Shown here: positions 27,460 through 50,217 of the stretch, one piece after another
How the letters are laid out: each line of letters starts with the position of its first letter
Position numbering within the stretch: position 1 is the first letter of the stretch
Origin: a virus
Lineage: Duplodnaviria > Heunggongvirae > Uroviricota > Caudoviricetes
Strand: one strand, 5' to 3'
DNA: 64,000 bases
Virus record (IMG/VR): IMGVR_UViG_2654587772_000002
Translations under genes and position numbers: made by a program
The notes under the pieces: model-generated
What the model was told of the DNA's origin: nothing
Seen by the model: only the letters and a program-made list of their open reading frames with translations
Databases searched by the model: none

Positions 27460-27909
27460 TATCGTATCCTGCTTCTGCTGCTCTTTACCCTGGGCGATGC
27501 TGGCTGCTTCTGCAAGGATCTGCCAGTACAACTCTGGATTCTGCTTAAGCAGCGCGATCCCTCGTTCTGCCGTATATTCCAGTGCAACCTCAACACCATT
27601 AACCAGTTCACCAACCCCTTTCCAGTCTTTCAGCAGATAACGAGCGGCATTATCAATGAGTAAATCATCAACAGAATCCACCTCGGAAACCTTTGAAATA
27701 TCAAACTCCTTCGTTCCGACGTGCAAACTGGCATCCATTTTCTCAATGTGGCGACGGATTAATGCATTACGGGAGCGATACTGATCGTTATCGCTGCTTG
27801 CCACCAACAGTTTTAACCCGTCTACAGGTTTTAAGTCCTTCATTGGCGTAAACCAGCGTTCTCCACCAATGATAATTTTCTGATTAAGAATAAACATCCA
27901 TAACCTCAT
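27448..27909 (-). CDS. G: Tail assembly chaperone G
   Basis: 153-aa ORF between major tail protein and tape measure; ends just after an A-AAA-AAG heptamer. Confidence 0.7.
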   Translation of the reverse strand: MRLWMFILNQKIIIGGERWFTPMKDLKPVDGLKLLVASSDNDQYRSRNALIRRHIEKMDASLHVGTKEFDISKVSEVDSVDDLLIDNAARYLLKDWKGVGELVNGVEVALEYTAERGIALLKQNPELYWQILAEAASIAQGKEQQKQDTIKKP

Positions 27910-35329: not shown

Positions 35330-36640
35330 TTAAATCCGAAGTGATGTGACTCTTCCGGTCGGTTTGACAATAGGGAATTGCTTAACGATGAAATAACCTC
35401 CTGCATCATTCGGGTGATCATTGCCAGATTTTTTATCAGGCTCCCCCTTCTCATCCCAGACCTGTTGCTCCAGAGATTCGGCATATAACGGGCAACGCTT
35501 CACATTAACTTTATAGCGACGCTCACCATTGGCATTGCAGAACATTGCATTCATTGAGTTAACGCGATCTTTTACTGGCGGGTTCGAGCTGTTCACCACA
35601 ACGTTAAAACCAGCCTGCTTAAGCTGGGCTATATCCGTCGTACTTGCGTTACTTGATTTTCTGGAATCCCCGGAAGCATCTGGATAAATATAAATTTCCC
35701 TCACTTTCCGGTAATCATTCCCATCATACAGCCAGAAGCGTTCTTTAATGATGCGGATCATATCCGGCGTATCGTAGGCATTGATGATTTCAGTTACCGC
35801 ACATGGAAGCCCCAAACGCAGCACATGGACGATTCCCGCCATCTTTCCAACGTTAAAATCCATCCCAATATAAATCGGCTCCCCTGGCTGCTCCACTTCT
35901 TCGCAATTATTCAGTTTCCGGTCAAACTGATGGTAAACAGTACCACTTGTCAGGTTAGTAAACTGTCCTCGAAGATAGGCTTTAATCAGCTCTGGAGGGT
36001 ATGATTCAAGAAGCGAAGGAATGTAATCTGCTGGCAGGTTCTTTTCATTATCGAAAGTAGATGCCTGCACCAGACCATACAGTGAGGCCAGCTCTGTTTT
36101 TTCACGCACGGCTTTAACAAACTGCTCGTAGACAAATTTGAATCCTTCCGGCGTGGTTGTAACGTCAATACCGTTGCGAAGTCCATCAATCTTATAACGC
36201 ATACGTGCAATTATCTTGCGCCACGCCGTTCTGGCTTTTTCCTTCGGCAAAATGTCCAGTTCATCCACCAACGCATTACCAATTTTGAAACCGACGATCG
36301 TTTGTGGCTTCTCCATCGATCTGCAGATAGTGGTTCCCCGATACTGGCGTCCGTAATAAAAGTGAACCTCTTTATTTCCCTCATTAATTTTTACGTTCAA
36401 TCCCCAGTCAGCAGCAACTTCTTCCACTGTAGGGTAAAAAATATCGCGAATTTGGGGATACGTTGGCGCAAAATATCCCTGATTTATACCTGGATGCTCC
36501 CAAATCCCCTTGCATATGCCGCCACACCCAACCCATGTTTTGCCCGAGCCAAAACCAGCAATATAGGCTTTAAATTTATGGGGCATTGAAAGAAATCGCG
36601 CCTGAGGCACATTAAGCGTCGGAGAGATCATCTTCATCAC
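35330..36640 (-). CDS. Terminase large subunit
   Basis: Walker A (AGFGSGKT), 436 aa, C-terminal nuclease-type region. Confidence 0.85.
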   Translation of the reverse strand: MMKMISPTLNVPQARFLSMPHKFKAYIAGFGSGKTWVGCGGICKGIWEHPGINQGYFAPTYPQIRDIFYPTVEEVAADWGLNVKINEGNKEVHFYYGRQYRGTTICRSMEKPQTIVGFKIGNALVDELDILPKEKARTAWRKIIARMRYKIDGLRNGIDVTTTPEGFKFVYEQFVKAVREKTELASLYGLVQASTFDNEKNLPADYIPSLLESYPPELIKAYLRGQFTNLTSGTVYHQFDRKLNNCEEVEQPGEPIYIGMDFNVGKMAGIVHVLRLGLPCAVTEIINAYDTPDMIRIIKERFWLYDGNDYRKVREIYIYPDASGDSRKSSNASTTDIAQLKQAGFNVVVNSSNPPVKDRVNSMNAMFCNANGERRYKVNVKRCPLYAESLEQQVWDEKGEPDKKSGNDHPNDAGGYFIVKQFPIVKPTGRVTSLRI

Positions 36641-37706
36641 TCCTTACTCTGGCATCAACCACATTAATATTGATCGCCACAGGCTGGGGATGTTCATTAT
36701 CTTCCACCGTTTCGATCTCTTTGCGCAGCTTCTGGTTTTCCATTCTGCGCCGTTCAATTTCCAGTTCCTGTAGCCGTTTATCTGCACATAAAGCCCCGCC
36801 AGCAGAAAACAAACGCAACAATTCACGCCGGGCGGCAGCCTTATCCTCCAGCAGGATCTCAACGCCGAATTTTCCGAATTTTGCCCCTGCATATAATTGC
36901 CGCGCATCCCCATCAAGCAGAGTGGTATCAGCCATATAAAGCTGTCCCGTTCCCTCACCGCAGCACTTCGGGCAGTCCGGATTGGGTATGGCGTTATCAA
37001 CAAAGCCGAGGCCTCCATATTCCGGTTCGGGTTTGCCATCTCTGGAAGCCTGCGCCGCTGCCTTGTCGAATTCTGCTATATCGCGCCACTGGTAGAGATG
37101 ATTCTCGCCCCAGCAATAACGGCAGTTAACACGGCGAAATTGTGCAAGCTGATTGGGGTCGGCCAGGACAATAGCCATCAACTGACTCACTAGTAAATCC
37201 AGGTCTGCGGTATAGCGTTTCTGGTACTGATTGCGGAAGTAGCTGATAGCGCGAAAAACCCTGGCATTTCTAAGCATACGACTGGCGTTGCTGTTAGCTG
37301 TCGCACCTTGCCCCTCATAACCGGCTAGTCGGTACGCCTCTGTCGGCTTTTTACCCTGAGCAACAAGCATCGCAAACTTAGCCTGCTGGTCAGAAATGCC
37401 GAATTCATCGGGACAGAACGAAAATTCCTCCGCGTCGCCCTCATTCAGGCCCGCATCGAATACTGGCTTTTTTTCCTGAGATTTTTCGTTCCGCTTTTGT
37501 GCAGTCTGCGCAGATTTTTTCTGCGCACTTTTTTGCGCAGTTTTGCACATTTCTGTCTGCGCATTTTTCGGAGTTTTTTTGATGTAACGACGGGCTGTTG
37601 CGTAATTCAGTCCCCTTGCTTCACACCATGCCACCGGAGATATACCGGAGCGGGTGTATTCAGCAATATACTCCTGCTGCAACGCCCCCCAGTCCGGTCT
37701 GCTCAT
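36612..37706 (-). CDS. Terminase small subunit / DNA-binding packaging protein
   Basis: 364 aa with N-terminal HTH-like segment, immediately upstream of and overlapping TerL. Confidence 0.55.
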   Translation of the reverse strand: MSRPDWGALQQEYIAEYTRSGISPVAWCEARGLNYATARRYIKKTPKNAQTEMCKTAQKSAQKKSAQTAQKRNEKSQEKKPVFDAGLNEGDAEEFSFCPDEFGISDQQAKFAMLVAQGKKPTEAYRLAGYEGQGATANSNASRMLRNARVFRAISYFRNQYQKRYTADLDLLVSQLMAIVLADPNQLAQFRRVNCRYCWGENHLYQWRDIAEFDKAAAQASRDGKPEPEYGGLGFVDNAIPNPDCPKCCGEGTGQLYMADTTLLDGDARQLYAGAKFGKFGVEILLEDKAAARRELLRLFSAGGALCADKRLQELEIERRRMENQKLRKEIETVEDNEHPQPVAININVVDARVRSDEDDLSDA

Positions 37707-37709
37707 CAG

Positions 37710-37961
37710 TTAGTCCTGATTTTTATCCACCCTGAGTAGTTCGCGCAGAGCAAAGGCATCCCCTTTTCTGGCAAGCTTAAACAATGCCGCTCGTAACTCG
37801 GCTTCACCTTTCGCTCTGCCCTTACGGATGGCCGCATAAAAATCTGTCATTGCTTCCCGATTTTCTTTCAGTCGGTTCAGATCAACATCCAGAACGTCAG
37901 CGATTTGTTGTGCAGTCATCCGGCACGCTGCCAGAGACTCGACTTTCGAATACGGAATCAT
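37710..37961 (-). CDS. Hypothetical small protein
   Basis: 83-aa ORF; true start may be internal (MTAQQIADVLD) because it overlaps the upstream gene. Confidence 0.3.
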   Translation of the reverse strand: MIPYSKVESLAACRMTAQQIADVLDVDLNRLKENREAMTDFYAAIRKGRAKGEAELRAALFKLARKGDAFALRELLRVDKNQD

Positions 37962-38829
37962 TTGTCACCCCCATTGATATGCAGGGTGTCTTCTTCCTGT
38001 ATTTTTCGTGAAGGATTTTTACTGCAGCGTTGTTCCAGGTGACCTGATGGTGAATGCGTTTATGGCTGGCACCCATCAGTGAGATTTTTACGCACGACGG
38101 CGCATACATGACGGAGTAAAAACTTTTAACGTAGGTTCCGGAATCCAGATACAGCTCGGTCATTCCGCCGCTGTTTTTCTGCGTCTGTTTCTGCCCTAAC
38201 TGGACAGCACCGATCGTCATAAACAATTCACCACAGCGACCGAGATTCGTGTACGTATTCACATCCTCGTTAATGCGCCCCATGAATGAGAACGGTCGAT
38301 CAACCGAACAGATAAAGCTGTTCATTGCCTTGCGTTTCACCCACGAAGCATGGCCGCCATTGTCACCAAGAAAATCCCCGCCCTGCGACATAGCGATGGA
38401 AAGAGCAGGTATTGATTCGTAGTACGCCAGCATTTCAGAAAGGATCGCATCCAGTTTCCTTATCGGAAAATAGGCCTGGTCATAGTTGCGATCCACCCGA
38501 AACTGGAACTCGTGATAATCATCATCGAGCTGAATGAAGTATTTACACCCGACCAGTTTTGCCAGGTCGAAACAGGCATTACGGGCGTAAAAAATTGAGC
38601 GGCGGTCACAGAAATTATCGGCTTCGTCAAAACGACTGGCGATATCGGCTTTGGAAAACACCAGCACCTGTTCACCAAATTCAGCCATGTACTGATTCCG
38701 TGTCTTATCTTCATCATCAACAACGATAAAAATTTTCCCGGTATAGCCAGCACGACGCAACGTCCGGTAAGTCAGAACTTTGTCCGGTCGCCCGTGAGTC
38801 AGAATAAAGGCGCAAAAATCATCACGCAT
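37897..38829 (-). CDS. GT-A fold glycosyltransferase-like protein (soluble)
   Basis: FILTHGRPDKV...IFIVVDDED and IQLDDDY resemble the family-2 glycosyltransferase N-terminal and DxD motifs; no TM segments. Confidence 0.5.
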   Translation of the reverse strand: MRDDFCAFILTHGRPDKVLTYRTLRRAGYTGKIFIVVDDEDKTRNQYMAEFGEQVLVFSKADIASRFDEADNFCDRRSIFYARNACFDLAKLVGCKYFIQLDDDYHEFQFRVDRNYDQAYFPIRKLDAILSEMLAYYESIPALSIAMSQGGDFLGDNGGHASWVKRKAMNSFICSVDRPFSFMGRINEDVNTYTNLGRCGELFMTIGAVQLGQKQTQKNSGGMTELYLDSGTYVKSFYSVMYAPSCVKISLMGASHKRIHHQVTWNNAAVKILHEKYRKKTPCISMGVTNDSVFESRVSGSVPDDCTTNR

Positions 38830-39613
38830 ATTCCTCCTCCTCACCACCATGCATGATCTCCACCATGCGCTGCGTCATCCGGACAAATCCATTTTCAATA
38901 GCCTGCTGATAATCAATGATCACCAGCGCCGACTCCTCGAAAAAACACTGAATTTCAGAGGGGGCGTGAGCGTAATAGTCCGCAATTCTGCTGAAATTAA
39001 ACACCGTGTGACGTTCTGCCGCACACAGGAGGAATTTCTCAATATCAGGCTCAAGGGACGCCGAACGTATCCGGCTGATCAGCTCCTGAGTTTTCGTATC
39101 GTCGTACAGTTCACTGATATCCGGTTTACCGCCCGACGGCTCATAAACAGGCGTATCAATTTTCGTCGCATACGGCTCCTCCTCATTTCCTGTACCGGGC
39201 AAAACATCCGTCAACAGTTCATCAATTTCTGTCGGGATGAAGCCTGTCAGGGAGACATCAAAATCAGCATTGATTAGGTCCGACAGCTCCATCCGCAACA
39301 GATCTTCATCCCAGCCAGCATTCATCGGCAGGCGATTATCTGCCAGGCGGTACGCCTTTTTCTGCTCATCCGTCAGGCCAGACAGAACAATGACCGGAAC
39401 AGAATCCATTTTGAGCATTTCAGCCGCCATAACACGACCGTGACCCGCAATAATTTCGCCCTTTTCGTCAATCAGCACCGGATTAGTCCAGCCGAATTGC
39501 TTAATACTTTCTACCAGTTGTGCCACCTGCTCAGGGCTGTGCGTCCTGGCGTTGTGCGCATACGGTGACAATTCTTGTAATGGGCGATAGACTATCTTTA
39601 ATTTCTCGCTCAT
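38822..39613 (-). CDS. ynaK: ParB-like nuclease domain protein
   Basis: N-terminal ParB/Srx-type motif (..VLIDEKGEIIAGHGRVMAA..); position as in Rac. Confidence 0.7.
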   Translation of the reverse strand: MSEKLKIVYRPLQELSPYAHNARTHSPEQVAQLVESIKQFGWTNPVLIDEKGEIIAGHGRVMAAEMLKMDSVPVIVLSGLTDEQKKAYRLADNRLPMNAGWDEDLLRMELSDLINADFDVSLTGFIPTEIDELLTDVLPGTGNEEEPYATKIDTPVYEPSGGKPDISELYDDTKTQELISRIRSASLEPDIEKFLLCAAERHTVFNFSRIADYYAHAPSEIQCFFEESALVIIDYQQAIENGFVRMTQRMVEIMHGGEEEEYA

Positions 39614-39750
39614 ACAGCCTTGCTTTATGAATAAAACGCACCCCAGCAGCCAGTGCTACTGGGGACGGAGGGGTTGCTGGTAAAGTTAGGTATTGGATCA
39701 ATGAGTGAGTCAACATAATATTAAACTCACAATTATAAATCAGCCATATA

Positions 39751-41208
39751 TTAGGAGCGCCAAAAAAAACCTGAAAACAATATAATAACAGGATAAATTT
39801 CAAGGCGACCAAGAATCATAGCTATGCACATTAAACATTTTGCAATGTCATTAAGCACTCCGAATGACGATGCAGTAGCCCCAAAACCTAATCCCATATT
39901 ATTAATACATGCAGCCACTGTTGCAAATGATGTAAGAAAATCATATCCCATACCATTTAACACCAGTATAAAAAACACCGTGAAGAGAGTATAAAGAAAA
40001 AAGAAACTCCATACAGACCTCATTACACGATCTGTAACTATCTTCCCTCCTACATTTACACTCAACAACGCTCTGGGATGAGAAAGCTGATTTATCTCGT
40101 GTTTGCTTTGTTTGAAAAGTATAAGAAATCGAAGTGACTTAATTCCACCACAAGTTGAACCTATACATCCCCCAAAGAAACTTGACAACAGCAAAAACAC
40201 TATCGTGTGCGTGGGCCAACTTGCATAATCCTGCGTAGCTAAACCATTATCAGTGAGCATGGAGCTGGCAAGAAAAAACGAATGAATAAAACTTCCATGC
40301 AAGTCATACATACCTATATGCCAGACCTGGAAAGAGGTAACAATGATCACCCCTAAGGCTATTAACAGAAAGAAACGAAGTTCAATATCTCTGATTAAAG
40401 GTTTTATCGTTTTCCTGCTAATAACAATATACCAAAGAGTGAAGTTGAAAGCCGATAGCAGGGAAAAAGAACCAGCCACCAGCTCAACCAAATAGTTATT
40501 AAAATATCCGATACTCTCGCTATGAGTTGAGAAACCACCAAGCGAAACTGTGGAAATCCCGTGACAAATAGCATCAAACAAAGGCATTCCTGCAAGTCTA
40601 TAACAGACAATACAAGCAATACCTAATAAAGAATAAGTTATCCACAGTGTCCGTGACGTATCGGCCAGGCGGGGAGTGAGTTTGTCATCCTTAAATGGCC
40701 CCGGCATTTCTGACTGATAAAGCTTTGCACCACCAATACCCAATAATGGCAATACAGCAACCGCCAGAACAATAACTCCTAAACCACCTATAAAATTTAA
40801 CTGTGACCGATAGTACAAATATGCCCGAGGTAATGAACTAACATCATCAATTACAGTTGCTCCTGTTGTTGTTATTCCAGAAACCCCTTCAAACAGAGCA
40901 TCAATGAACGTTAAATTAAGTTCTGAGTCAATCCATAAAGGGAATGCACTAATAACAGAAAACAAAATCCAAAACATTACAATTATAATAAACCCATCAC
41001 GGGTACGTAATTGAATGCCAGATTTCTTAGTTGTATACCACGCTCCGCCACCAATGCAAAAAAATATAACGAAAGTTATAAAGAAAACGAACAGGCTTTT
41101 TTCTTTATAAAACAATGCTACAACCATTGGTGGCAACATTGAAAGACTATAGAGCCAAACCAGGAACCCACACATATGAGTAACAACTCTTACATGAGAT
41201 GTATTCAT
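39751..41208 (-). CDS. trkG: Trk system potassium uptake protein TrkG (prophage cargo)
   Basis: 485-aa polytopic membrane protein starting MNTSHVRVVTHMCGFLVW; AT-rich relative to flanks; known Rac cargo gene. Confidence 0.85.
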   Translation of the reverse strand: MNTSHVRVVTHMCGFLVWLYSLSMLPPMVVALFYKEKSLFVFFITFVIFFCIGGGAWYTTKKSGIQLRTRDGFIIIVMFWILFSVISAFPLWIDSELNLTFIDALFEGVSGITTTGATVIDDVSSLPRAYLYYRSQLNFIGGLGVIVLAVAVLPLLGIGGAKLYQSEMPGPFKDDKLTPRLADTSRTLWITYSLLGIACIVCYRLAGMPLFDAICHGISTVSLGGFSTHSESIGYFNNYLVELVAGSFSLLSAFNFTLWYIVISRKTIKPLIRDIELRFFLLIALGVIIVTSFQVWHIGMYDLHGSFIHSFFLASSMLTDNGLATQDYASWPTHTIVFLLLSSFFGGCIGSTCGGIKSLRFLILFKQSKHEINQLSHPRALLSVNVGGKIVTDRVMRSVWSFFFLYTLFTVFFILVLNGMGYDFLTSFATVAACINNMGLGFGATASSFGVLNDIAKCLMCIAMILGRLEIYPVIILFSGFFWRS

Positions 41209-41345
41209 ATCTAAATATTCTTTCAATTATAACCACCTTGCTGCAATATTATGATTATACTGTATAAAATTTAACTCCTCTTAGATCTTACTTCACTGTT
41301 CCTTATGAAACAATCATCAAAATGAATCATATTGTAGTTAAGATT

Positions 41346-42770: not shown

Positions 42771-43166
42771 CTAACCTCGCATGTCAAAGCCAGATTTCTG
42801 AAAATCTCTGTAGACTTCCGGATTGTTGAAGGCCGGAAATTTGGCTTTATGAGCTGCGGACTTTATCGCTTCGCAATAGGCTTTATCACCGTTACTGGTA
42901 GATATTTTTAACGCCGTACCATCCTGAGAGAATTCCATATGCAACCTGCATTTTTTCCCTTTCCAGTTATGCGGCTCATCAAGTTTGGCATTAATTGCAG
43001 CTCTGATTCCCCGCGCTTGCGCCCCCCATTCATCCTGATCATCCCAGCGTCCTGAACTGCAACTACCTGTAGCAGTAGTTTTGTGGCAATCTGAAGGGTG
43101 TAAAGGTGTGCATCCCGCAACAAAACCGACCCAAAAAGTCAACATAACGATTTTCTTTAATCCCAC
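42771..43166 (-). CDS. Lipoprotein (moron), paralog of 43317..43745
   Basis: Signal peptide with lipobox VAGC; shared C-terminal domain (GKKC.L.M....G..L.....GD...C.A...A..KA.FPA...PEVY..FQ). Confidence 0.6.
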   Translation of the reverse strand: MGLKKIVMLTFWVGFVAGCTPLHPSDCHKTTATGSCSSGRWDDQDEWGAQARGIRAAINAKLDEPHNWKGKKCRLHMEFSQDGTALKISTSNGDKAYCEAIKSAAHKAKFPAFNNPEVYRDFQKSGFDMRG

Positions 43167-43316
43167 TTCTTGCTCCTCAATCCATTAAAATCTCAGCAAT
43201 AGTAGTTGTTACGTCCGCCACTGGCTCAGAGCTGACTATCCGCTAAATTTAGCTCAGTGCCGTAGCTGTGTCAGAACAAACCTAAGCCGAAACCGTTTAT
43301 TACAAAACAATAAATA

Positions 43317-43745
43317 TCAGGGTTTAAAATCCAGCACCCCATTTTGAAATACTTTATATACTTCCGGCGAAGGGGGGGCAGGTATATCAGCATTCTTTAT
43401 CGCATTCATCGCTTCACGACATAAATCGAGGTCTCCACTTTCTCTTTTAACCTCCAGTAGAAGGCCATTCGGGGCCATATGCATTCTCAGTGTACACTCT
43501 TTTCCTGAATACTTACTCGCATCCCCGAACTGTTTTTCGATGGCGCTCTTGATTTGATGGGCATACAGACGGATATCCTCACTAACATCAGAAGTACGTT
43601 CAGATGAACTCACATACTGTGTCTCTATTGCTTTATCGGAGTAATATGATGTACGGTCATGATAATTTGTCGATACAGCATCAGTGCACCCGATAATAAT
43701 CCCACTAATAATCAACGTAAGAATTGATGCGCTACGAAAACCCAT
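43317..43745 (-). CDS. Lipoprotein (moron), paralog of 42771..43166
   Basis: Signal peptide with lipobox IIGC; same C-terminal domain as the neighbour. Confidence 0.6.
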   Translation of the reverse strand: MGFRSASILTLIISGIIIGCTDAVSTNYHDRTSYYSDKAIETQYVSSSERTSDVSEDIRLYAHQIKSAIEKQFGDASKYSGKECTLRMHMAPNGLLLEVKRESGDLDLCREAMNAIKNADIPAPPSPEVYKVFQNGVLDFKP

Positions 43746-46717: not shown

Positions 46718-48109
46718 ATGACTGAGAACACGACTCCAACAGCAGACTTTAGTCCTAGTAAAAGATTTTTTGTGAGTATGCTAACTCGAGATATCGACTT
46801 AAACGATGCCATACTTGATCTGCTTGATAACTGCGTCGATGGGGCTTTACGTACAATAAAAGACACAAAAAAAACTTCAAAACCATATGAAGGATTTTAT
46901 GCGAAACTTACGATTAATAAAGATGTCTTTATTATAGAAGACAATTGCGGAGGTATCCCTAAAAGCTTCCGAGAATATGCTTTTAAAATGGGACGACCCC
47001 ATCAAAAAGAAGAAGAAAATGAAGGCACCGTTGGCGTCTATGGTATTGGTATGAAAAGAGCCATTTTTAAAATGGGTAGAGATTGCTCAATACAATCGAA
47101 TAATCCCGATGGCGCATTCACTGTAGATATAACACCTGATTGGATCGATGGTGATGGTTGGAAAATACCGATGCACGAGAGTGACTATGATAACAAAAAT
47201 CCAACAGGCACAACTATAGAGATAAAAAAACTCCATTCTAATGTGGCACAAAAATTTAATGAGAGCACATATCTTACTGATCTCTTTTTACAGATAAAAC
47301 ACTCATTGTCATTTATTATTCAAAAAGGATTTAAAATAGAATTAAATGGAGTTGTTGTTGAACATAATCCGATTAACATCATAACTGATCATTCTAAAAT
47401 AGAACCATACATATATAAAGCTAAAATAGACGATGTTGATATCGATTTAGTTGTTGGCTTCTATAAAAATTTAGAAGATGACAATGATGATGTTTTAGAA
47501 AAAAGGAGTTCTGATGATGCTGGATGGACTGTCATTTGCAATGACCGCGTTGTTCTATATTGTGATAAGACACATCTCACAGGTTGGGGCTTTGCTAATG
47601 TACCAAGGTTTCATACCCAATTTATAGCAATTTCTGGGGTTGTTCGCTTTACCAGTAAAAACCCAGAAAAATTACCAATAACAACAACGAAACGAGGTGT
47701 CGATCTTAGTTCTACATTGTACAATGATGTACGAAATAAAATGATTGAAGGGATGATGCATTTTATTCGATTCACCAATCAGTGGAAAGGTGAGCATCTT
47801 GAAGAAGGGAAAAAATTACTTAAGTCAGCTCAGTCACATGAAGCTCAATCTTTATTTGAAATTACCCCACAATCAACTCCAGAAGATAAAAAAAATAACT
47901 GGTCCAACCCTAATAGAAACAAAAATGAGTGGCGATATACACCTAAGCTGCCTACCCCAGTAAAAAAAAGCTCTACTGTACGAATAATCTTCACCAGAGA
48001 GAAAGAAGATGTTAAAATTTTATCTAAATATTTCTTTGGACATGAAGATGCTAGCGCTTCTGATGTGGGGATGCAATGCTTTGATACGGTGATTGAAGAG
48101 GTGAAGTGA
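46718..48109 (+). CDS. GHKL-family (MutL/MORC/histidine-kinase-like) ATPase with about 330-aa C-terminal domain of unknown function
   Basis: Bergerat-fold motifs: N box LLDNCVDGA, G1 box IEDNCGGIP, G2 box GVYGIGMKRAIFKMG in the first ~120 residues. Confidence 0.8.
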   Translation: MTENTTPTADFSPSKRFFVSMLTRDIDLNDAILDLLDNCVDGALRTIKDTKKTSKPYEGFYAKLTINKDVFIIEDNCGGIPKSFREYAFKMGRPHQKEEENEGTVGVYGIGMKRAIFKMGRDCSIQSNNPDGAFTVDITPDWIDGDGWKIPMHESDYDNKNPTGTTIEIKKLHSNVAQKFNESTYLTDLFLQIKHSLSFIIQKGFKIELNGVVVEHNPINIITDHSKIEPYIYKAKIDDVDIDLVVGFYKNLEDDNDDVLEKRSSDDAGWTVICNDRVVLYCDKTHLTGWGFANVPRFHTQFIAISGVVRFTSKNPEKLPITTTKRGVDLSSTLYNDVRNKMIEGMMHFIRFTNQWKGEHLEEGKKLLKSAQSHEAQSLFEITPQSTPEDKKNNWSNPNRNKNEWRYTPKLPTPVKKSSTVRIIFTREKEDVKILSKYFFGHEDASASDVGMQCFDTVIEEVK

Positions 48110-49098
48110 TGTCTGGACAATACATTCCCTATCACTTAAGGCATAATAAGTCTATTGATAGAGAGATTTTTCTCGAAAGCCTAAACCTCTTAAGCAAAAG
48201 ACTAAATATTCAAGAATATACATATATAGGTTTTGGTGGTCCGATGCTTGAAGATTTTAGAATCATGCATAATCGTATCGCTCTTTCTGATATGATTTCT
48301 CTCGAAGAACAAGAGTCTACTCACATCAGACAAAAATATAATTTGCCTTATAATTGTATTGATTGTAAGCTAATATCAGCTCATGACTTTATTCTTGATT
48401 ATAGTTTTTCTAAACCATCAATAACATGGTTAGACTATGCCTCCCCGAAAAAAATACAAACGGATCTAGATGATATACACTTACTAAGTACTAAAGTAAG
48501 CTCTTTTGATATTTTGAAGGTCACCTTCCCCATAAATCCTAGTTCTTATTACCAACGTAGAGTTGGAGAAAGTTTAGATATTTTTAAAGAAGCTTTTATT
48601 AATTCATTAAAATCATTGCTTGGGAAAAAGTATCTTGATTTTAATCTTCAGATATCAAATGCAGATCTTTCAGATCGTAAGATTAAAGCTCTTTTAATAC
48701 GAATTATTACAAACGCTTTTAGATCAGCAATAGAACGTGGTCTTTCAGGACGTAAGGATAAGATTCAGTATTACCCATTATCTTTAAATCAATATAATGA
48801 TGGCAGTCATACCATGTTGACAATATCAGGTTTTTTCTCCTCAGAACAAGAATATATAGAGTTATCTAAGGCATGCGACCTTTCTAACTGGCAATTTTAT
48901 TCAACAAATTGGGAAGACGTGCAAGAAATAGCAATACCAACACTAACAATTAAAGAAAAGATAAATTTAGATAGTAAACTGCCTGATAAAGAAGCATATC
49001 AGGCAGCCGCTGAAGAGTTCTCTTTAAACGAAAATGAACGGGATAACTATTATAAATACTATAGGTTATACCCTAACTTCCAAAGAATTATGGTTTAA
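48106..49098 (+). CDS. Unknown 330-aa protein translationally coupled to the GHKL ATPase (candidate effector/specificity subunit)
   Basis: Stop/start overlap (GTGATG) with upstream gene; AT-rich; no recognisable motif. Confidence 0.6.
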   Translation: MMSGQYIPYHLRHNKSIDREIFLESLNLLSKRLNIQEYTYIGFGGPMLEDFRIMHNRIALSDMISLEEQESTHIRQKYNLPYNCIDCKLISAHDFILDYSFSKPSITWLDYASPKKIQTDLDDIHLLSTKVSSFDILKVTFPINPSSYYQRRVGESLDIFKEAFINSLKSLLGKKYLDFNLQISNADLSDRKIKALLIRIITNAFRSAIERGLSGRKDKIQYYPLSLNQYNDGSHTMLTISGFFSSEQEYIELSKACDLSNWQFYSTNWEDVQEIAIPTLTIKEKINLDSKLPDKEAYQAAAEEFSLNENERDNYYKYYRLYPNFQRIMV

Positions 49099-50217
49099 AT
49101 ATTCGGGCTGTACTCTTTTATTTAATAAATTGTACAGCCCCTTTAATATATATTCAGCAACTATTGGTGACACGCTATTTCCTATTTGTCTGAAACTATG
49201 CCATTTAGTTACATGAAAGCGAAACCAATCAGGGAAGCCTTGTAATCTAGCAGCTTCTCTTGGTGTAATCACTCTTGGATGATAAGGGTGGATCGGCCTG
49301 ACGGCTTGAAAGCTTCCTTTATCTCTAGCGGTTCCCGCCCTTAAAGTCGGGCAAAAACCATTTGGATCTAATCTTGTAGATCTTGAAATTTTATCAGTTT
49401 CCCCAAAAGATAAGGAAGCATAACGCTCTTGGACGATTTTGCTATGTAATGTTCCGGTACATCCAGATATGATATTATTTTTTAACTTAGCGATCGATTC
49501 TGTATCACCAACATTCCGAGGGATCTGCCCCCATAATTTTTCATAAAATCCCCCTTTTCGATCTTTTTTAATTGTTCGCCAACTCTCAGAGTCTGATTGC
49601 CAATTGGCATCGATAATATCTGGTAATCCATACAAAGCATCTTTTACAGTAACCGGATCAATCATTTTAGGCATAAATACTTCATCTGAAATATCAAGCT
49701 TCAATGATTTTTTTACACCGATAAAAAAATATCTAGTTCGAATAGTTGGAGCACCATAATCAGATGCTTTTACCTTGATGGGATCAAGAATATCATAATC
49801 ACCGCTAACCAAATTAAATGCTTTATTTCTAATGCCAGAATATTTCTCTTGCATAATACCTGGAACATTTTCTGCCAAAAAGAATAATGGCTGTAATTCT
49901 GATACTAAACGGTAGAAATGCATGTAAAGCTGATTCCTGCTATCATCAGGATTCCCCTTGCCTATTGAACTAAATCCTTGGCACGGAGGACCGCCAATAA
50001 TACCATCTATGGGCATATCGTTTTTAAAAAAACCCTTAATTATTTCTGCATTTAGTAAAGAAACATCTTCTTGGACGTGCAAACTTCTTGGAAAATTAAT
50101 TGCGTGAGTATTAATAGCATGTTGATCAATTTCAACTGCCATTTTAACATCAAATCCAGCACGTGCAGCACCAAGACTTAGACCTCCAACGCCAGAAAAC
50201 AAATCTATTACATTCAT
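49066..50217 (-). CDS. DNA (cytosine-5)-methyltransferase
   Basis: Motif I DLFSGVGG, motif IV GGPPCQGFS, motif VI ENV (FLAENVPG), motif X GNSVSP; about 150-aa variable target-recognition region; convergent with partner gene, 3' ends overlap 33 nt. Confidence 0.9.
   Translation of the reverse strand: MNVIDLFSGVGGLSLGAARAGFDVKMAVEIDQHAINTHAINFPRSLHVQEDVSLLNAEIIKGFFKNDMPIDGIIGGPPCQGFSSIGKGNPDDSRNQLYMHFYRLVSELQPLFFLAENVPGIMQEKYSGIRNKAFNLVSGDYDILDPIKVKASDYGAPTIRTRYFFIGVKKSLKLDISDEVFMPKMIDPVTVKDALYGLPDIIDANWQSDSESWRTIKKDRKGGFYEKLWGQIPRNVGDTESIAKLKNNIISGCTGTLHSKIVQERYASLSFGETDKISRSTRLDPNGFCPTLRAGTARDKGSFQAVRPIHPYHPRVITPREAARLQGFPDWFRFHVTKWHSFRQIGNSVSPIVAEYILKGLYNLLNKRVQPEYLNHNSLEVRV

What the first reader, a model, noticed from the sequence alone, without database searches (positions are those of the whole stretch)
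37897..39613. ParB-like nuclease gene paired with a soluble GT-A glycosyltransferase-like gene upstream of the terminase
Downstream of the ParB/Srx-fold gene (ynaK-like) lies a 311-aa protein whose N-terminus and DxD-type motifs (IVVDDED, LDDDY) resemble family-2 glycosyltransferases but which has no membrane segments, unlike O-antigen-modifying GtrB. A soluble nucleotide-sugar transferase next to a DNA-binding ParB-like protein and directly before the packaging genes could represent a DNA or virion modification (anti-restriction) module. In K-12 Rac the corresponding gene is, as I recall, a pseudogene.
Basis: inference. Interest (0 to 1): 0.5.

Follow-up and report, generated by a model that had tools for sequence, protein, structure and literature searches.

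The report
ParB-partnered phage glycosyltransferase, acceptor unknown
A Rac-type E. coli prophage carries, just ahead of its DNA-packaging genes, a sugar-transferring enzyme of the family that decorates phage DNA, coupled to a ParB-like partner; the pair recurs in phages of many phyla but has no known way to make the base such enzymes normally glycosylate.

Summary
On the minus strand, 38822-39613 encodes a full-length YnaK, a 263-aa ParB/Srx protein. 37897-38829 encodes a soluble 310-aa GT-A glycosyltransferase. The two genes overlap by 8 nt and lie upstream of a small ORF, TerS, TerL and portal.

The glycosyltransferase belongs to Pfam PF20691 (TAGT, "TET-associated glycosyltransferase"; 121 bits) and has the R…DDD…ED catalytic motif of the DNA glycosyltransferases.

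In 78 of 80 species-level loci from many phyla, and in an archaeal virus, the gene immediately upstream encodes the same partner. The constant part of that partner is not the ParB domain. It is an acidic C-terminal domain of about 110 aa with no Pfam match, and it often stands alone.

The pair sits either before terminases of at least five families or inside replication clusters. No TET/JBP dioxygenase or hydroxymethylase was found in the annotated part of this prophage, in the complete phage c5 genome, or as a recurrent neighbour.

My best reading is a two-component, ParB-assisted DNA glycosylation module, the sugar counterpart of phage ParB-DNA-methyltransferase fusions, with an unknown acceptor (confidence about 0.45). 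Protein glycosylation is the main rival.

I rate this a new variant of a known kind, interest 0.55.

The parts
38822..39613 (-). Full-length ynaK: 263-aa ParB/Srx-type protein, the partner subunit of the glycosyltransferase
   Evidence: ORF. PF02195 28.9 bits and phrog_620 E = 8.5e-91. RefSeq calls it 'ParB/Srx family N-terminal domain-containing protein'. A homologue lies immediately upstream of the GT in 78/80 loci.
39209..39613 (-). N-terminal ParB NTP-binding-type domain (residues 1-135), with N21-x-R23, S36, G57-H-G-R60 and D92-N93
   Evidence: AF2 pLDDT is about 90 over this part. A profile search hits the NBDs of Noc, Spo0J and ParB in the PDB, E about 1e-5. PADLOC MTase_II profile, N-terminal positions 13-151, E = 2.3e-38. 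Up to 50% identity to the N-domains of phage DNA methylases. Invariant residues are listed.
39134..39178 (-). Predicted-disordered linker (residues 146-160) carrying the conserved motif Y-[TA]-x-K-I-x-x-P-x-Y-E-P. P155 and Y157 are nearly invariant across phyla. Function unknown: it could be a docking peptide or an acceptor tyrosine.
   Evidence: pLDDT below 50 over residues 136-169. Conservation; P17 and Y19 of alignment A4 are at least 90% conserved.
38849..39121 (-). Acidic helical C-terminal domain (residues 165-255). This is the obligatory partner domain of this TAGT clade and is not in Pfam.
   Evidence: Present in 78/80 loci, against 62/80 for the NBD, and stand-alone in several phages. 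Median identity 43%, against 31% for the NBD. No Pfam or PDB match. Stand-alone proteins of about 130 aa dominate a 1783-hit search. pI 4.3-4.7.
37897..38829 (-). 310-aa soluble GT-A glycosyltransferase of the TAGT family (PF20691). RefSeq labels it 'hypothetical protein' WP_001204037.1.
38518..38526 (-). Codons for the invariant D102-D103-D104, the metal/nucleotide-sugar-binding 'DDD' of the R…DDD…ED motif. The partner positions are G13-R14 and N187-E188-D189-V190.
   Evidence: Invariant columns of the 38-sequence alignment A1. Codon positions read. The motif is defined for phage GT-A DNA glycosyltransferases and JGT in bioRxiv 10.1101/2023.12.21.572611.
37975..38139 (-). Conserved basic C-terminal extension of the GT (residues 231-285, beyond the Pfam model). 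It is poorly modelled in the monomer and is a candidate surface for the acidic partner or for DNA.
   Evidence: Invariant G231, T232, Y233, K235, F237, Y238, P244, R258, H260, H261, W265, K279. pLDDT below 50. pI 9.5 for residues 231-310.
38822..38840 (-). Translational-coupling junction: Shine-Dalgarno GGAGGAGGAA (38831-38840), GT start ATG (38827-38829) and ynaK stop TGA (38822-38824), an 8-nt overlap
   Evidence: Sequence read. Start/stop overlaps of 4 to 35 nt are the rule in the related loci.
37710..37961 (-). Small basic ORF (83 aa from the first ATG; RefSeq model 69 aa, 37710-37919) between the GT and TerS. It resembles part of TerS proteins. Membership in the module is uncertain.
   Evidence: phrog_309 'terminase small subunit' positions 145-218, E = 8e-23. 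No Pfam family. Conserved only in the enterobacterial loci.
36612..37706 (-). Terminase small subunit (context: start of the packaging genes)
   Evidence: PF03592 34.5 bits and phrog_51 E = 1.7e-75.
35330..36640 (-). Terminase large subunit (context)
   Evidence: Terminase_6N and Terminase_6C.
39641..39664 (-). Terminator-like hairpin with a T-run after the trkG moron, 27 nt before the ynaK start. It marks the upstream boundary of the module.
   Evidence: with the sequence.

Best explanation
The region encodes a two-subunit modification enzyme, made together with the packaging proteins.

- Subunit 1 (310 aa) is a soluble, metal-dependent GT-A glycosyltransferase of the TAGT family. It takes a sugar from a nucleotide-sugar.
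- Subunit 2 (YnaK, 263 aa) has an N-terminal ParB-type NTP-binding domain, of the kind that phages otherwise fuse to DNA methyltransferases. It also has an acidic C-terminal domain that is the specific, obligatory partner of this TAGT clade.

I propose that the pair glycosylates replicated phage DNA shortly before or during packaging. YnaK would act as the activating or DNA-engaging subunit, by analogy with the ParB proteins that switch on phage thymine dioxygenases on double-stranded DNA. The sugar mark would shield virion DNA from host nucleases.

Shown here: the fold, the family, the catalytic motif, translational coupling, near-universal co-occurrence with the partner domain, placement next to packaging or replication genes, and the absence of any recognisable precursor-making enzyme.

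Inferred: that DNA is the acceptor, that YnaK activates or targets the enzyme, and that the benefit is anti-restriction.

Unknown: the acceptor atom and the sugar.
For: 1. Family and fold.
- PF20691 at 121 bits and phrog_842 E = 1e-103.
- The nearest viral structures are TAGT proteins, including a T4-like beta-glucosyl-HMC-alpha-glucosyltransferase.
- T6 ggt, a proven DNA glycosyltransferase, falls in the same Pfam and PHROG families.
- Invariant G-R, DDD and NED-V match the R…DDD…ED[Y/F] motif of phage 5hmC glycosyltransferases and the base-J glucosyltransferase.

2. Partner.
- A homologue lies immediately upstream on the same strand in 78/80 loci from Proteobacteria, Bacteroidota, Firmicutes, Negativicutes, Planctomycetota, CPR and archaeal MAGs, mostly with overlapping start and stop. 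The two exceptions are contig ends.
- The pair is also present in haloarchaeal virus HHTV-2 and in Lactobacillus phage c5.

3. DNA-linked context.
- The pair precedes TerS/TerL of at least five unrelated terminase families.
- In larger phages the CTD-only form sits inside replication clusters with DnaB, primase, PolA, RecA, clamp loader or beta clamp, SSB and exonuclease.

4. The NBD.
- It is up to 50% identical to the N-domain of phage 'DNA modification methylases'.
- Those methylases occupy the same slot just before the terminase.

5. Precedent.
- ParB proteins with an NBD and CTD but no DNA-binding domain are required for phage thymine dioxygenases to act on dsDNA (PMC13229309).

6. Accessory genes and fusions fit glycan building.
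- A second TAGT, class-I methyltransferase, sulfotransferase and P-loop kinase fusions.
- Neighbouring epimerase, NTP-transferase, GDP-mannose dehydratase, cytidylyltransferase and UDP-galactopyranose mutase genes.

7. Selection and prevalence.
- dN is 0.14-0.31 with saturated dS.
- The 2.2-kb region is at least 80% covered in 865 of 5426 complete E. coli genomes.
Against: - Every characterised enzyme of this family or of its close structural relatives adds sugar to a hydroxymethyl-pyrimidine or to a sugar already on one (PMC13216743; PMC7968844). No TET/JBP dioxygenase, dNMP hydroxymethylase or thymidylate-synthase-like gene is annotated in the prophage as covered (window about 17600-59800). 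None turned up in my Pfam scan of ten of its proteins or in the complete 31.8-kb genome of phage c5.
- No TET/JBP family was among the 25 commonest neighbour families listed in either census.
- YnaK has no recognisable DNA-binding domain and is very acidic: pI 4.5, net charge about -25.
- The animal relative GREB1 glycosylates a protein.
- There is no pairwise or profile similarity to T6 ggt itself.
- There are no experimental data for any member of this clade.
Confidence: 0.45

Rival explanations
1. Protein glycosylation. The GT glycosylates a protein rather than DNA. The acceptor would be either its own partner, on the nearly invariant Pro-x-Tyr of the disordered linker (glycogenin-like), or a packaging or virion protein made from the same operon (TerS, portal, head proteins).
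For: - GREB1, the animal member of the TAGT-related group, O-GlcNAcylates a protein (PMC7968844).
- No DNA acceptor-generating enzyme is present.
- The universally co-occurring partner carries a conserved, disordered Y-x-x-K-I-x-x-P-x-Y-E-P motif.
- In temperate phages the pair heads the structural-gene operon.
Against: - In larger phages the pair lies among replication genes, far from structural genes.
- The partner's N-domain is the one fused to DNA methyltransferases.
- Terminase and head proteins downstream belong to unrelated families, so no common virion acceptor exists apart from the partner itself.
- The Y148/K151 half of the motif is missing in many stand-alone CTD proteins.
Confidence: 0.22
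2. Literal T2/T6-type function, as the PHROG and RefSeq-phage label says: a second glucose is added to glucosyl-hydroxymethylcytosine.
For: Same PHROG (842) and Pfam family as T6 ggt. Several phage records carry this product name.
Against: - No dCMP hydroxymethylase, alpha-GT or beta-GT is annotated or found in the prophage or in phage c5.
- No detectable pairwise or profile similarity to T6 ggt.
- T6 ggt has no ParB/CTD partner next to it; its neighbours are uvsX and gene 42.
- The name is a propagated family label.
Confidence: 0.02
3. Lysogenic conversion. The GT modifies a host envelope polymer (O-antigen, teichoic acid), as GtrB or TarP do, to block superinfection.
For: - Prophage glycosyltransferases commonly serve seroconversion (general knowledge; also noted in PMC12373910).
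Against: - No membrane segment.
- The gene is in the late operon, not a moron with its own promoter.
- The same pair occurs in virulent phage c5, in jumbo-type lytic phages and in an archaeal virus, whose hosts have unrelated envelopes.
- The obligatory ParB/CTD partner has no role in envelope chemistry.
Confidence: 0.03
4. The two genes are functionally separate. YnaK is a ParB-like nuclease or packaging accessory that helps the terminase recognise or cut pac DNA, and the GT is an unrelated accessory gene that happens to sit beside it.
For: - ParB-like 'nuclease' genes are commonly annotated next to terminases.
- The module is adjacent to TerS, which contains CTGCGCA repeats that could be a pac site.
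Against: - Adjacency with overlapping stop and start in 78/80 loci across phyla, with at least five terminase families and also away from any terminase.
- The conserved part is the non-ParB C-terminal domain, which often occurs without the ParB domain but always with the GT.
Confidence: 0.06

Closest known systems
TAGT family (Pfam PF20691): T2/T6 beta-glucosyl-HMC-alpha-glucosyltransferase and the GT-A glycosyltransferases of phage TET/5mYOX gene clusters; distantly, kinetoplastid base-J glucosyltransferase and GREB1
   Same: Same Pfam and PHROG families, GT-A fold, R…DDD…ED catalytic motif, soluble, phage-encoded.
   Different: - No TET/5mYOX, C5-methyltransferase-plus-TET pair or dNMP hydroxymethylase accompanies it.
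- It always has a ParB/CTD partner, which T6 ggt lacks.
- No direct sequence similarity to T6 ggt.
- The acceptor is therefore unknown.
- 'Solitary' TAGTs have been noted as functionally undefined: 288 of 753 phages in PMC13216743.
ParB-dependent phage thymine dioxygenases (5mYOX176/ParB176; O'Toole et al., PNAS 2026, PMC13229309)
   Same: - A ParB-like protein with an NTP-binding domain and a C-terminal domain but no DNA-binding domain, encoded next to a post-replicative DNA-modifying enzyme, often near terminase genes.
- The residues they mutated (N14, R16, S29, R56) have counterparts here: N21, R23, S36, R60.
   Different: - The enzyme partner here is a glycosyltransferase, not a dioxygenase.
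- In that study the ParB-dependent class is linked to amino-acid/kinase-type thymidine hypermodification genes, and it is the ParB-independent class that is linked to GTs.
- Whether their CTD is homologous to this one could not be tested, because their sequences are not held.
Phage ParB-N6/N4 DNA methyltransferase fusions ('DNA modification methylase' upstream of terminase)
   Same: - The N-terminal ParB domain is the closest relative of YnaK's: PADLOC MTase_II N-terminus E = 2e-38, and up to 50% identity.
- Same genomic slot immediately before TerS/TerL.
   Different: The catalytic module is a methyltransferase fused in cis. Here it is a separate glycosyltransferase recruited through a dedicated C-terminal domain.
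Chromosomal/plasmid ParB (Spo0J, Noc, KorB) CTP-dependent DNA clamps
   Same: Homologous N-terminal NTP-binding fold with Box I/II/III-type residues.
   Different: No HTH/parS-binding domain, no ParA partner in the RefSeq annotation of the prophage, strongly acidic protein. It is not a partition system.

Membership tests
Pfam PF20691 TAGT (TET-associated glycosyltransferase) | Match to the family profile above the curated threshold | tested here: met
   121 bits against a gathering score of 27.5, E = 8.4e-35, profile positions 4-205 of 205. phrog_842 at 347.6 bits.
Pfam PF20691 TAGT (TET-associated glycosyltransferase) | GT-A (nucleotide-diphospho-sugar transferase) fold | tested here: met
Pfam PF20691 TAGT (TET-associated glycosyltransferase) | Catalytic motif R…DDD…ED[Y/F] of DNA-modifying GT-A enzymes and JGT | tested here: met
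   G13-R14, D102-D103-D104 and N187-E188-D189 are invariant in 38 sequences. The last position is V190 rather than Y/F (motif as quoted).
Pfam PF20691 TAGT (TET-associated glycosyltransferase) | Genomic association with a TET/JBP (5mYOX) dioxygenase or another source of hydroxymethyl-pyrimidine | tested here: not met
   None in the RefSeq annotation of the prophage, in my Pfam scan of ten of its proteins, or in the complete phage c5 genome. None among the 25 commonest families listed for the flanking genes of the 80 loci or in three metagenomic contexts.
Pfam PF20691 TAGT (TET-associated glycosyltransferase) | Transfer of a sugar to 5hmC/5hmU, or to a sugar on them, in DNA | not testable with these tools
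   Needs enzymology or LC-MS of DNA.
T2/T6 beta-glucosyl-HMC-alpha-glucosyltransferase (functional equivalence) | Direct sequence similarity to the characterised enzyme, and presence of its substrate pathway (gene 42 hydroxymethylase plus alpha-GT) | tested here: not met
   BLASTP E = 1.0 and hhalign probability 0.1%. T6 ggt lies between uvsX and gene 42 with a-gt nearby; nothing comparable is in the window.
ParB/Srx NTP-binding fold (PF02195) | Profile match and conserved Box I/II/III residues | tested here: met
   28.9 bits against 26.3. PDB profile hits to Noc, Spo0J and ParB NBDs. N21, R23 (90% or more), G57, G59, R60, D92 and N93 invariant.
Partition ParB (ParABS) | HTH parS-binding domain, ParA partner, parS repeats | tested here: not met
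   No HTH family hit. TIGR00180 scores 38.5 bits against a cut-off of 58.45. No ParA in the annotation. No convincing repeat set near the genes. The protein has pI 4.5.
ParB/Srx NTP-binding fold (PF02195) | NTP binding or hydrolysis | not testable with these tools
   Needs biochemistry. Related phage ParB folds bind CTP, ATP or GTP (PMC12704722).
5mYOX-associated ParB activators (PMC13229309) | NBD plus CTD architecture without a DNA-binding domain | tested here: met
   compared with the description.
5mYOX-associated ParB activators (PMC13229309) | Adjacent cognate 5mYOX; homology of the CTD to ParB176-type CTDs | tested here: not met
   No 5mYOX is adjacent. CTD homology was not tested because the published sequences are not held.
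GT2 O-antigen-modifying GtrB-type enzymes | GT2 profile match and C-terminal membrane segments | tested here: not met
   Only PF20691 is matched in Pfam. Maximum 19-residue hydropathy is 1.08.

The most novel reading that the evidence does not exclude
Because neither this prophage (as far as annotated) nor small complete phages such as c5 can make 5hmC or 5hmU, the CTD/ParB-TAGT pair may install a sugar directly on an unmodified DNA constituent. Candidates are an exocyclic amine of a canonical base, the backbone, or a DNA end. That would be a DNA modification chemistry not yet described, carried by about one in six complete E. coli genomes and by phages of many bacterial phyla and of haloarchaea. 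Its specificity subunit would be a previously undescribed acidic domain of about 110 aa. A second unconventional reading is that the partner's invariant tyrosine is itself glycosylated.
Probability: 0.2. Interest if true: 0.85.

Novelty: new variant of a known kind. Interest (0 to 1): 0.55.

Why it matters
"Solitary" TAGT glycosyltransferases were recently flagged as common in phages (288 of 753) and functionally undefined. ParB-like proteins have only just been shown to activate a DNA-modifying enzyme.

This locus places a member of that unexplained class in an ordinary, genetically tractable E. coli prophage. The analysis also shows three things:

- The glycosyltransferase has an obligatory partner.
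- The partner's conserved part is an uncharacterised domain, not the ParB fold.
- No known precursor pathway is present.

If the pair does glycosylate DNA, it implies either a new acceptor chemistry or a new anti-restriction strategy in lambdoid phages. It would also affect how such prophage DNA behaves in sequencing, restriction and defence-system assays. If the pair glycosylates protein, it would be a widespread phage protein-glycosylation system tied to DNA transactions. Either way, RefSeq's 'hypothetical protein' and the propagated 'beta-glucosyl-HMC-alpha-glucosyltransferase' label are both inadequate.

Tried and rejected
- Literal T6 ggt function. Rejected: no similarity and no hmC pathway.
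- Search for a hidden dioxygenase. A Pfam scan of ten further prophage proteins found replication, regulatory, SieB, Q-like and scaffold families, plus a cargo island with a C5 methyltransferase, but no oxygenase. A census of the three genes upstream and two genes downstream in the 80 loci listed no TET/JBP family. Only the 25 commonest families are listed, so single occurrences cannot be excluded.
- Solved structures. No TAGT-family or CTD relative is in the PDB by sequence.
- Structure of YnaK. The NBD is confident but the CTD is not, so I ran no fold search on it.
- The afdb50 fold library was unavailable, so similarity to the base-J glucosyltransferase or GREB1 models could not be checked directly.
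- Iyer et al. 2013, the paper that defined TAGT and, as I recall, discussed ParB linkage, is not held. The supplements of the ParB-5mYOX paper are not held.
- A literature search for 'ynaK' returned noise. No paper found describes the ParB-TAGT pair without a dioxygenase.
- parS-like repeats. Only short repeats at chance level near the genes; the one notable set lies inside TerS.
- dN/dS. Synonymous sites are saturated, so only dN could be reported.
- The IMG/VR scan returned mostly near-identical enterobacterial prophages and added little.
- The CTD-TAGT fusion P0081 is a single short contig and may be a gene-calling artefact, so it is not used as evidence.
Full report
**What is there**

All genes in this part of the window are on the minus strand. 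They belong to a Rac-type lambdoid prophage of E. coli. The 2.2-kb stretch around the finding is 100% identical to several complete genomes, including strains ST2747 and SE11, and 865 of 5426 complete E. coli genomes cover at least 80% of it.

The gene order is as follows:
- holin, lysozyme and Rz;
- trkG, a low-GC moron (GC about 0.37);
- a ParB-like gene, 38822-39613;
- the glycosyltransferase-like gene, 37897-38829;
- a small ORF, 37710-37961;
- TerS (36612-37706), TerL (35330-36640), portal, and the head and tail genes.

A terminator-like hairpin (39641-39664) follows trkG, 27 nt before the ParB start. The GT start is the ATG at 38829, preceded by GGAGGAGGAA. It overlaps the ParB stop codon by 8 nt, which is a classic translational-coupling junction.

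**The glycosyltransferase**

- It matches Pfam PF20691, 'TET-associated glycosyltransferase' (TAGT), at 121 bits (cut-off 27.5), and PHROG 842 at E = 1e-103. NCBIfam has nothing for it, and RefSeq calls it a hypothetical protein.
- In the viral structure library the best matches are TAGT-domain phage proteins, and a T4-like beta-glucosyl-HMC-alpha-glucosyltransferase also appears.
- The invariant residues of the clade are G13-R14, D102-D103-D104 and N187-E188-D189-V190. They reproduce the R…DDD…ED[Y/F] motif reported for phage 5hmC glycosyltransferases and the trypanosome base-J glucosyltransferase.
- The characterised T6 enzyme ggt falls in the same Pfam family (35.8 bits) and the same PHROG. 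It shows no pairwise or profile-profile similarity to the Rac protein. The product name 'beta-glucosyl-HMC-alpha-glucosyltransferase' seen on relatives in phage records is therefore a family label, not a functional assignment.
- A conserved, basic C-terminal extension (residues 231-285, pI 9.5 for 231-310) lies beyond the Pfam model and is poorly modelled in the monomer.

**The partner**

The 263-aa protein is the full-length form of K-12 YnaK. It has three parts.

- *N-terminal domain, residues 1-135.* This is a ParB/Srx NTP-binding-type domain (PF02195; PDB profile hits to the Noc, Spo0J and ParB N-domains). N21, G57-H-G-R60 and D92-N93 are conserved. Its closest relatives are not partition proteins. 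They are the N-terminal domains of phage DNA methyltransferases (PADLOC MTase_II E = 2e-38; up to 50% identity to 'DNA modification methylases'). Those methylase genes occupy the same slot just before TerS/TerL.
- *Linker.* It is predicted to be disordered and carries the conserved motif Y-[TA]-x-K-I-x-x-P-x-Y-E-P.
- *C-terminal domain, residues 165-255.* It is helical and acidic, with no Pfam or PDB match.

There is no HTH domain and no ParA partner, and the protein has a net charge of about -25. It is not a partition ParB.

**The linkage is the main result**

A scan of one genome per species returned 80 loci encoding relatives 43-100% identical to the Rac GT. They come from Proteobacteria, Bacteroidota, Firmicutes, Negativicutes, Planctomycetota, Verrucomicrobiota, CPR bacteria and archaeal MAGs. 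In 78 of them a homologue of YnaK lies immediately upstream on the same strand, usually with overlapping stop and start codons. The two exceptions are loci cut off by a contig end.

Domain-level mapping changes the picture. The C-terminal domain is present in 78 of 80 loci, the ParB domain in only 62. In several phages, including a 191-kb Vibrio phage, the upstream gene is a stand-alone C-terminal domain of about 130-150 aa. Across phyla the C-terminal domain is also the better conserved part, at a median 43% identity against 31% for the ParB domain. A profile search with it finds 1783 proteins, and the top hits are dominated by stand-alone forms of about 130 aa with no Pfam annotation.

The constant unit is therefore [acidic C-terminal domain] + [TAGT]. 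The ParB domain is a frequent N-terminal addition.

**Context**

Downstream of the pair lie TerS and TerL proteins of at least five unrelated terminase families, so the pair travels as a cassette. Two complete viral genomes illustrate this:
- In the 31.8-kb virulent Lactobacillus phage c5, the pair is ORF1-ORF2, right after the cos end and before the terminase.
- In haloarchaeal virus HHTV-2, it is gp21-gp22, 3 kb upstream of TerL.

Where the partner lacks the ParB domain, the pair sits in replication clusters, next to DnaB-primase, family-A polymerase, RecA, clamp loader or beta clamp, SSB and exonuclease. Both settings are DNA transactions.

Accessory genes and fusions point to glycan building and tailoring:
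- a second, divergent TAGT;
- class-I SAM methyltransferase, sulfotransferase and P-loop-kinase fusions;
- neighbouring epimerase, GDP-mannose dehydratase, nucleotidyltransferase, cytidylyltransferase and UDP-galactopyranose mutase genes.

**What is missing**

Characterised TAGT-type enzymes and their structural relatives glycosylate 5hmC or 5hmU, or a sugar already attached to them. I found no TET/JBP dioxygenase, dNMP hydroxymethylase or comparable enzyme in any of the following:
- the RefSeq annotation of this prophage type, which covers window positions about 17600-59800;
- my Pfam scan of ten further prophage proteins;
- the complete c5 genome;
- three metagenomic contexts;
- the commonest families flanking the 80 loci. 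Only the 25 commonest families are listed in those censuses, so isolated cases cannot be excluded.

The window does contain a C5 DNA methyltransferase (49066-50217). It belongs to a variable cargo island that SE11 replaces with other genes, and on its own it cannot supply a hydroxyl acceptor.

**Interpretation**

The best-supported reading is a two-component DNA glycosylation module. The GT is the catalytic subunit. YnaK is the partner that activates it or engages it with DNA. On this reading the module is the glycosyltransferase counterpart of the ParB-methyltransferase fusions found at the same genomic position. It would also be mechanistically akin to the ParB proteins (NBD plus CTD, no DNA-binding domain) that a 2026 study showed to be required for a class of phage thymine dioxygenases to act on double-stranded DNA (PMC13229309).

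The charge complementarity between the acidic partner and the basic, unmodelled C-terminus of the GT suggests where the two proteins meet. That is inference only.

Against this reading stand the absence of any known acceptor-generating step, the acidity of YnaK and its lack of a DNA-binding domain, and the fact that GREB1, the animal relative, glycosylates a protein. I therefore put DNA glycosylation at about 0.45 and protein glycosylation at about 0.22. For the latter, the acceptor could be the partner's nearly invariant tyrosine or a packaging or virion protein. The literal T6-type function, envelope seroconversion and a coincidental juxtaposition are each unlikely, for the reasons listed under the rivals.

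**Comparison with what is known, and novelty**

Family membership in TAGT is met on profile, fold and motif. The feature that names the family, association with TET/JBP, is not met. Recent papers note that 'solitary' TAGTs are frequent and undefined (288 of 753 phages, PMC13216743). They also note that most GT-A contigs lack a neighbouring 5mYOX or thymidylate-synthase gene. ParB linkage to TET/JBP clusters was proposed long ago, and I recall it from Iyer et al. 2013, which I could not read.

I found no description of three points:
- that this TAGT clade has an obligatory partner;
- that the partner's constant part is an uncharacterised acidic domain rather than the ParB fold;
- that the pair is self-contained in complete small phage genomes.

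I rate the finding a new variant of a known kind.

**The K-12 statement**

K-12 Rac matches the window through trkG and the first ~85 codons of ynaK, up to position 39360. It then resumes at 27799, inside the gene RefSeq names ydaY, which lies next to the tape-measure gene. The GT gene is therefore deleted in K-12, not pseudogenised, and K-12 YnaK is an 87-aa stub.

**Verdict**

The finding is moderately interesting (0.55). It is not a new kind of system. It does put an open question, what solitary TAGTs and their ParB-like partners do, into a tractable E. coli prophage, and it defines the partner domain that any experiment must include.

Noticed in passing
window 37504-37572 (inside the TerS gene, minus-strand coding): Four to five closely spaced copies of a CTGCGCA-containing repeat, some forming hairpins. 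They encode an AQK-rich repeated peptide. They could be the pac recognition site of this headful-type terminase.
   Followed up: no
window 46718-50217: Variable cargo island: a GHKL-type ATPase (HATPase_c_3, 463 aa) and a PF20553 'putative O-methyltransferase' (330 aa) on the plus strand, convergent with a C5 DNA cytosine methyltransferase (383 aa). It looks like a restriction-modification or defence cassette. E. coli SE11 carries a DUF262 (GmrSD-like) gene plus a TPR gene at the same slot.
   Followed up: partly
window 39751-41226, with hairpin at 39641-39664: trkG potassium transporter moron with GC about 0.37 against about 0.49 in the flanks. It is inserted between the lysis cassette and the packaging module and is followed by a strong terminator-like hairpin just before ynaK.
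   Followed up: partly
window 27799 / 39360 (K-12 NC_000913.3 about 1425630): The K-12 Rac deletion joins these two points and removes about 11.56 kb. Many E. coli database proteins are chimeras of the ParB N-terminus with Lom, TerL, NlpC/P60 or tail-fibre fragments, which suggests recurrent independent deletions starting inside ynaK.
   Followed up: partly
L168 8001-9265; L169 7105-9387; L170 8001-9237; L165 6459-7888: Stand-alone acidic C-terminal-domain proteins (about 130-180 aa, no Pfam family) paired with TAGT inside phage replication clusters. L169 and L060 have a second, divergent TAGT just upstream, which suggests a disaccharide product.
   Followed up: partly
L068 2095-3084, L053, L054, L056, L074 (gene +1); L170 12638-13705: A radical SAM enzyme sits immediately downstream of the TAGT in several Clostridia-type loci. 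It could tailor the sugar or, speculatively, create an acceptor anaerobically where an O2-dependent dioxygenase cannot work.
   Followed up: no
P0151, P0186, P0199 (N-terminal about 180 aa); P0128, P0130, P0167; P0164; L033 189-1739: Fusions of this TAGT clade with a P-loop (GxxxxGKS) kinase-like domain, class-I SAM methyltransferases and a sulfotransferase. One partner protein has a class-I methyltransferase fused in front of its ParB domain. This probably accounts for some of the 'ParB-Methyltransf_23' phage fusions reported in PMC12704722.
   Followed up: partly
window 42771-43745: Two ORFs (131 and 142 aa) between the Q-like antiterminator region and the lysis genes that RefSeq annotates as TolA C-terminal-domain proteins. 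They may be moron or superinfection-related genes.
   Followed up: no
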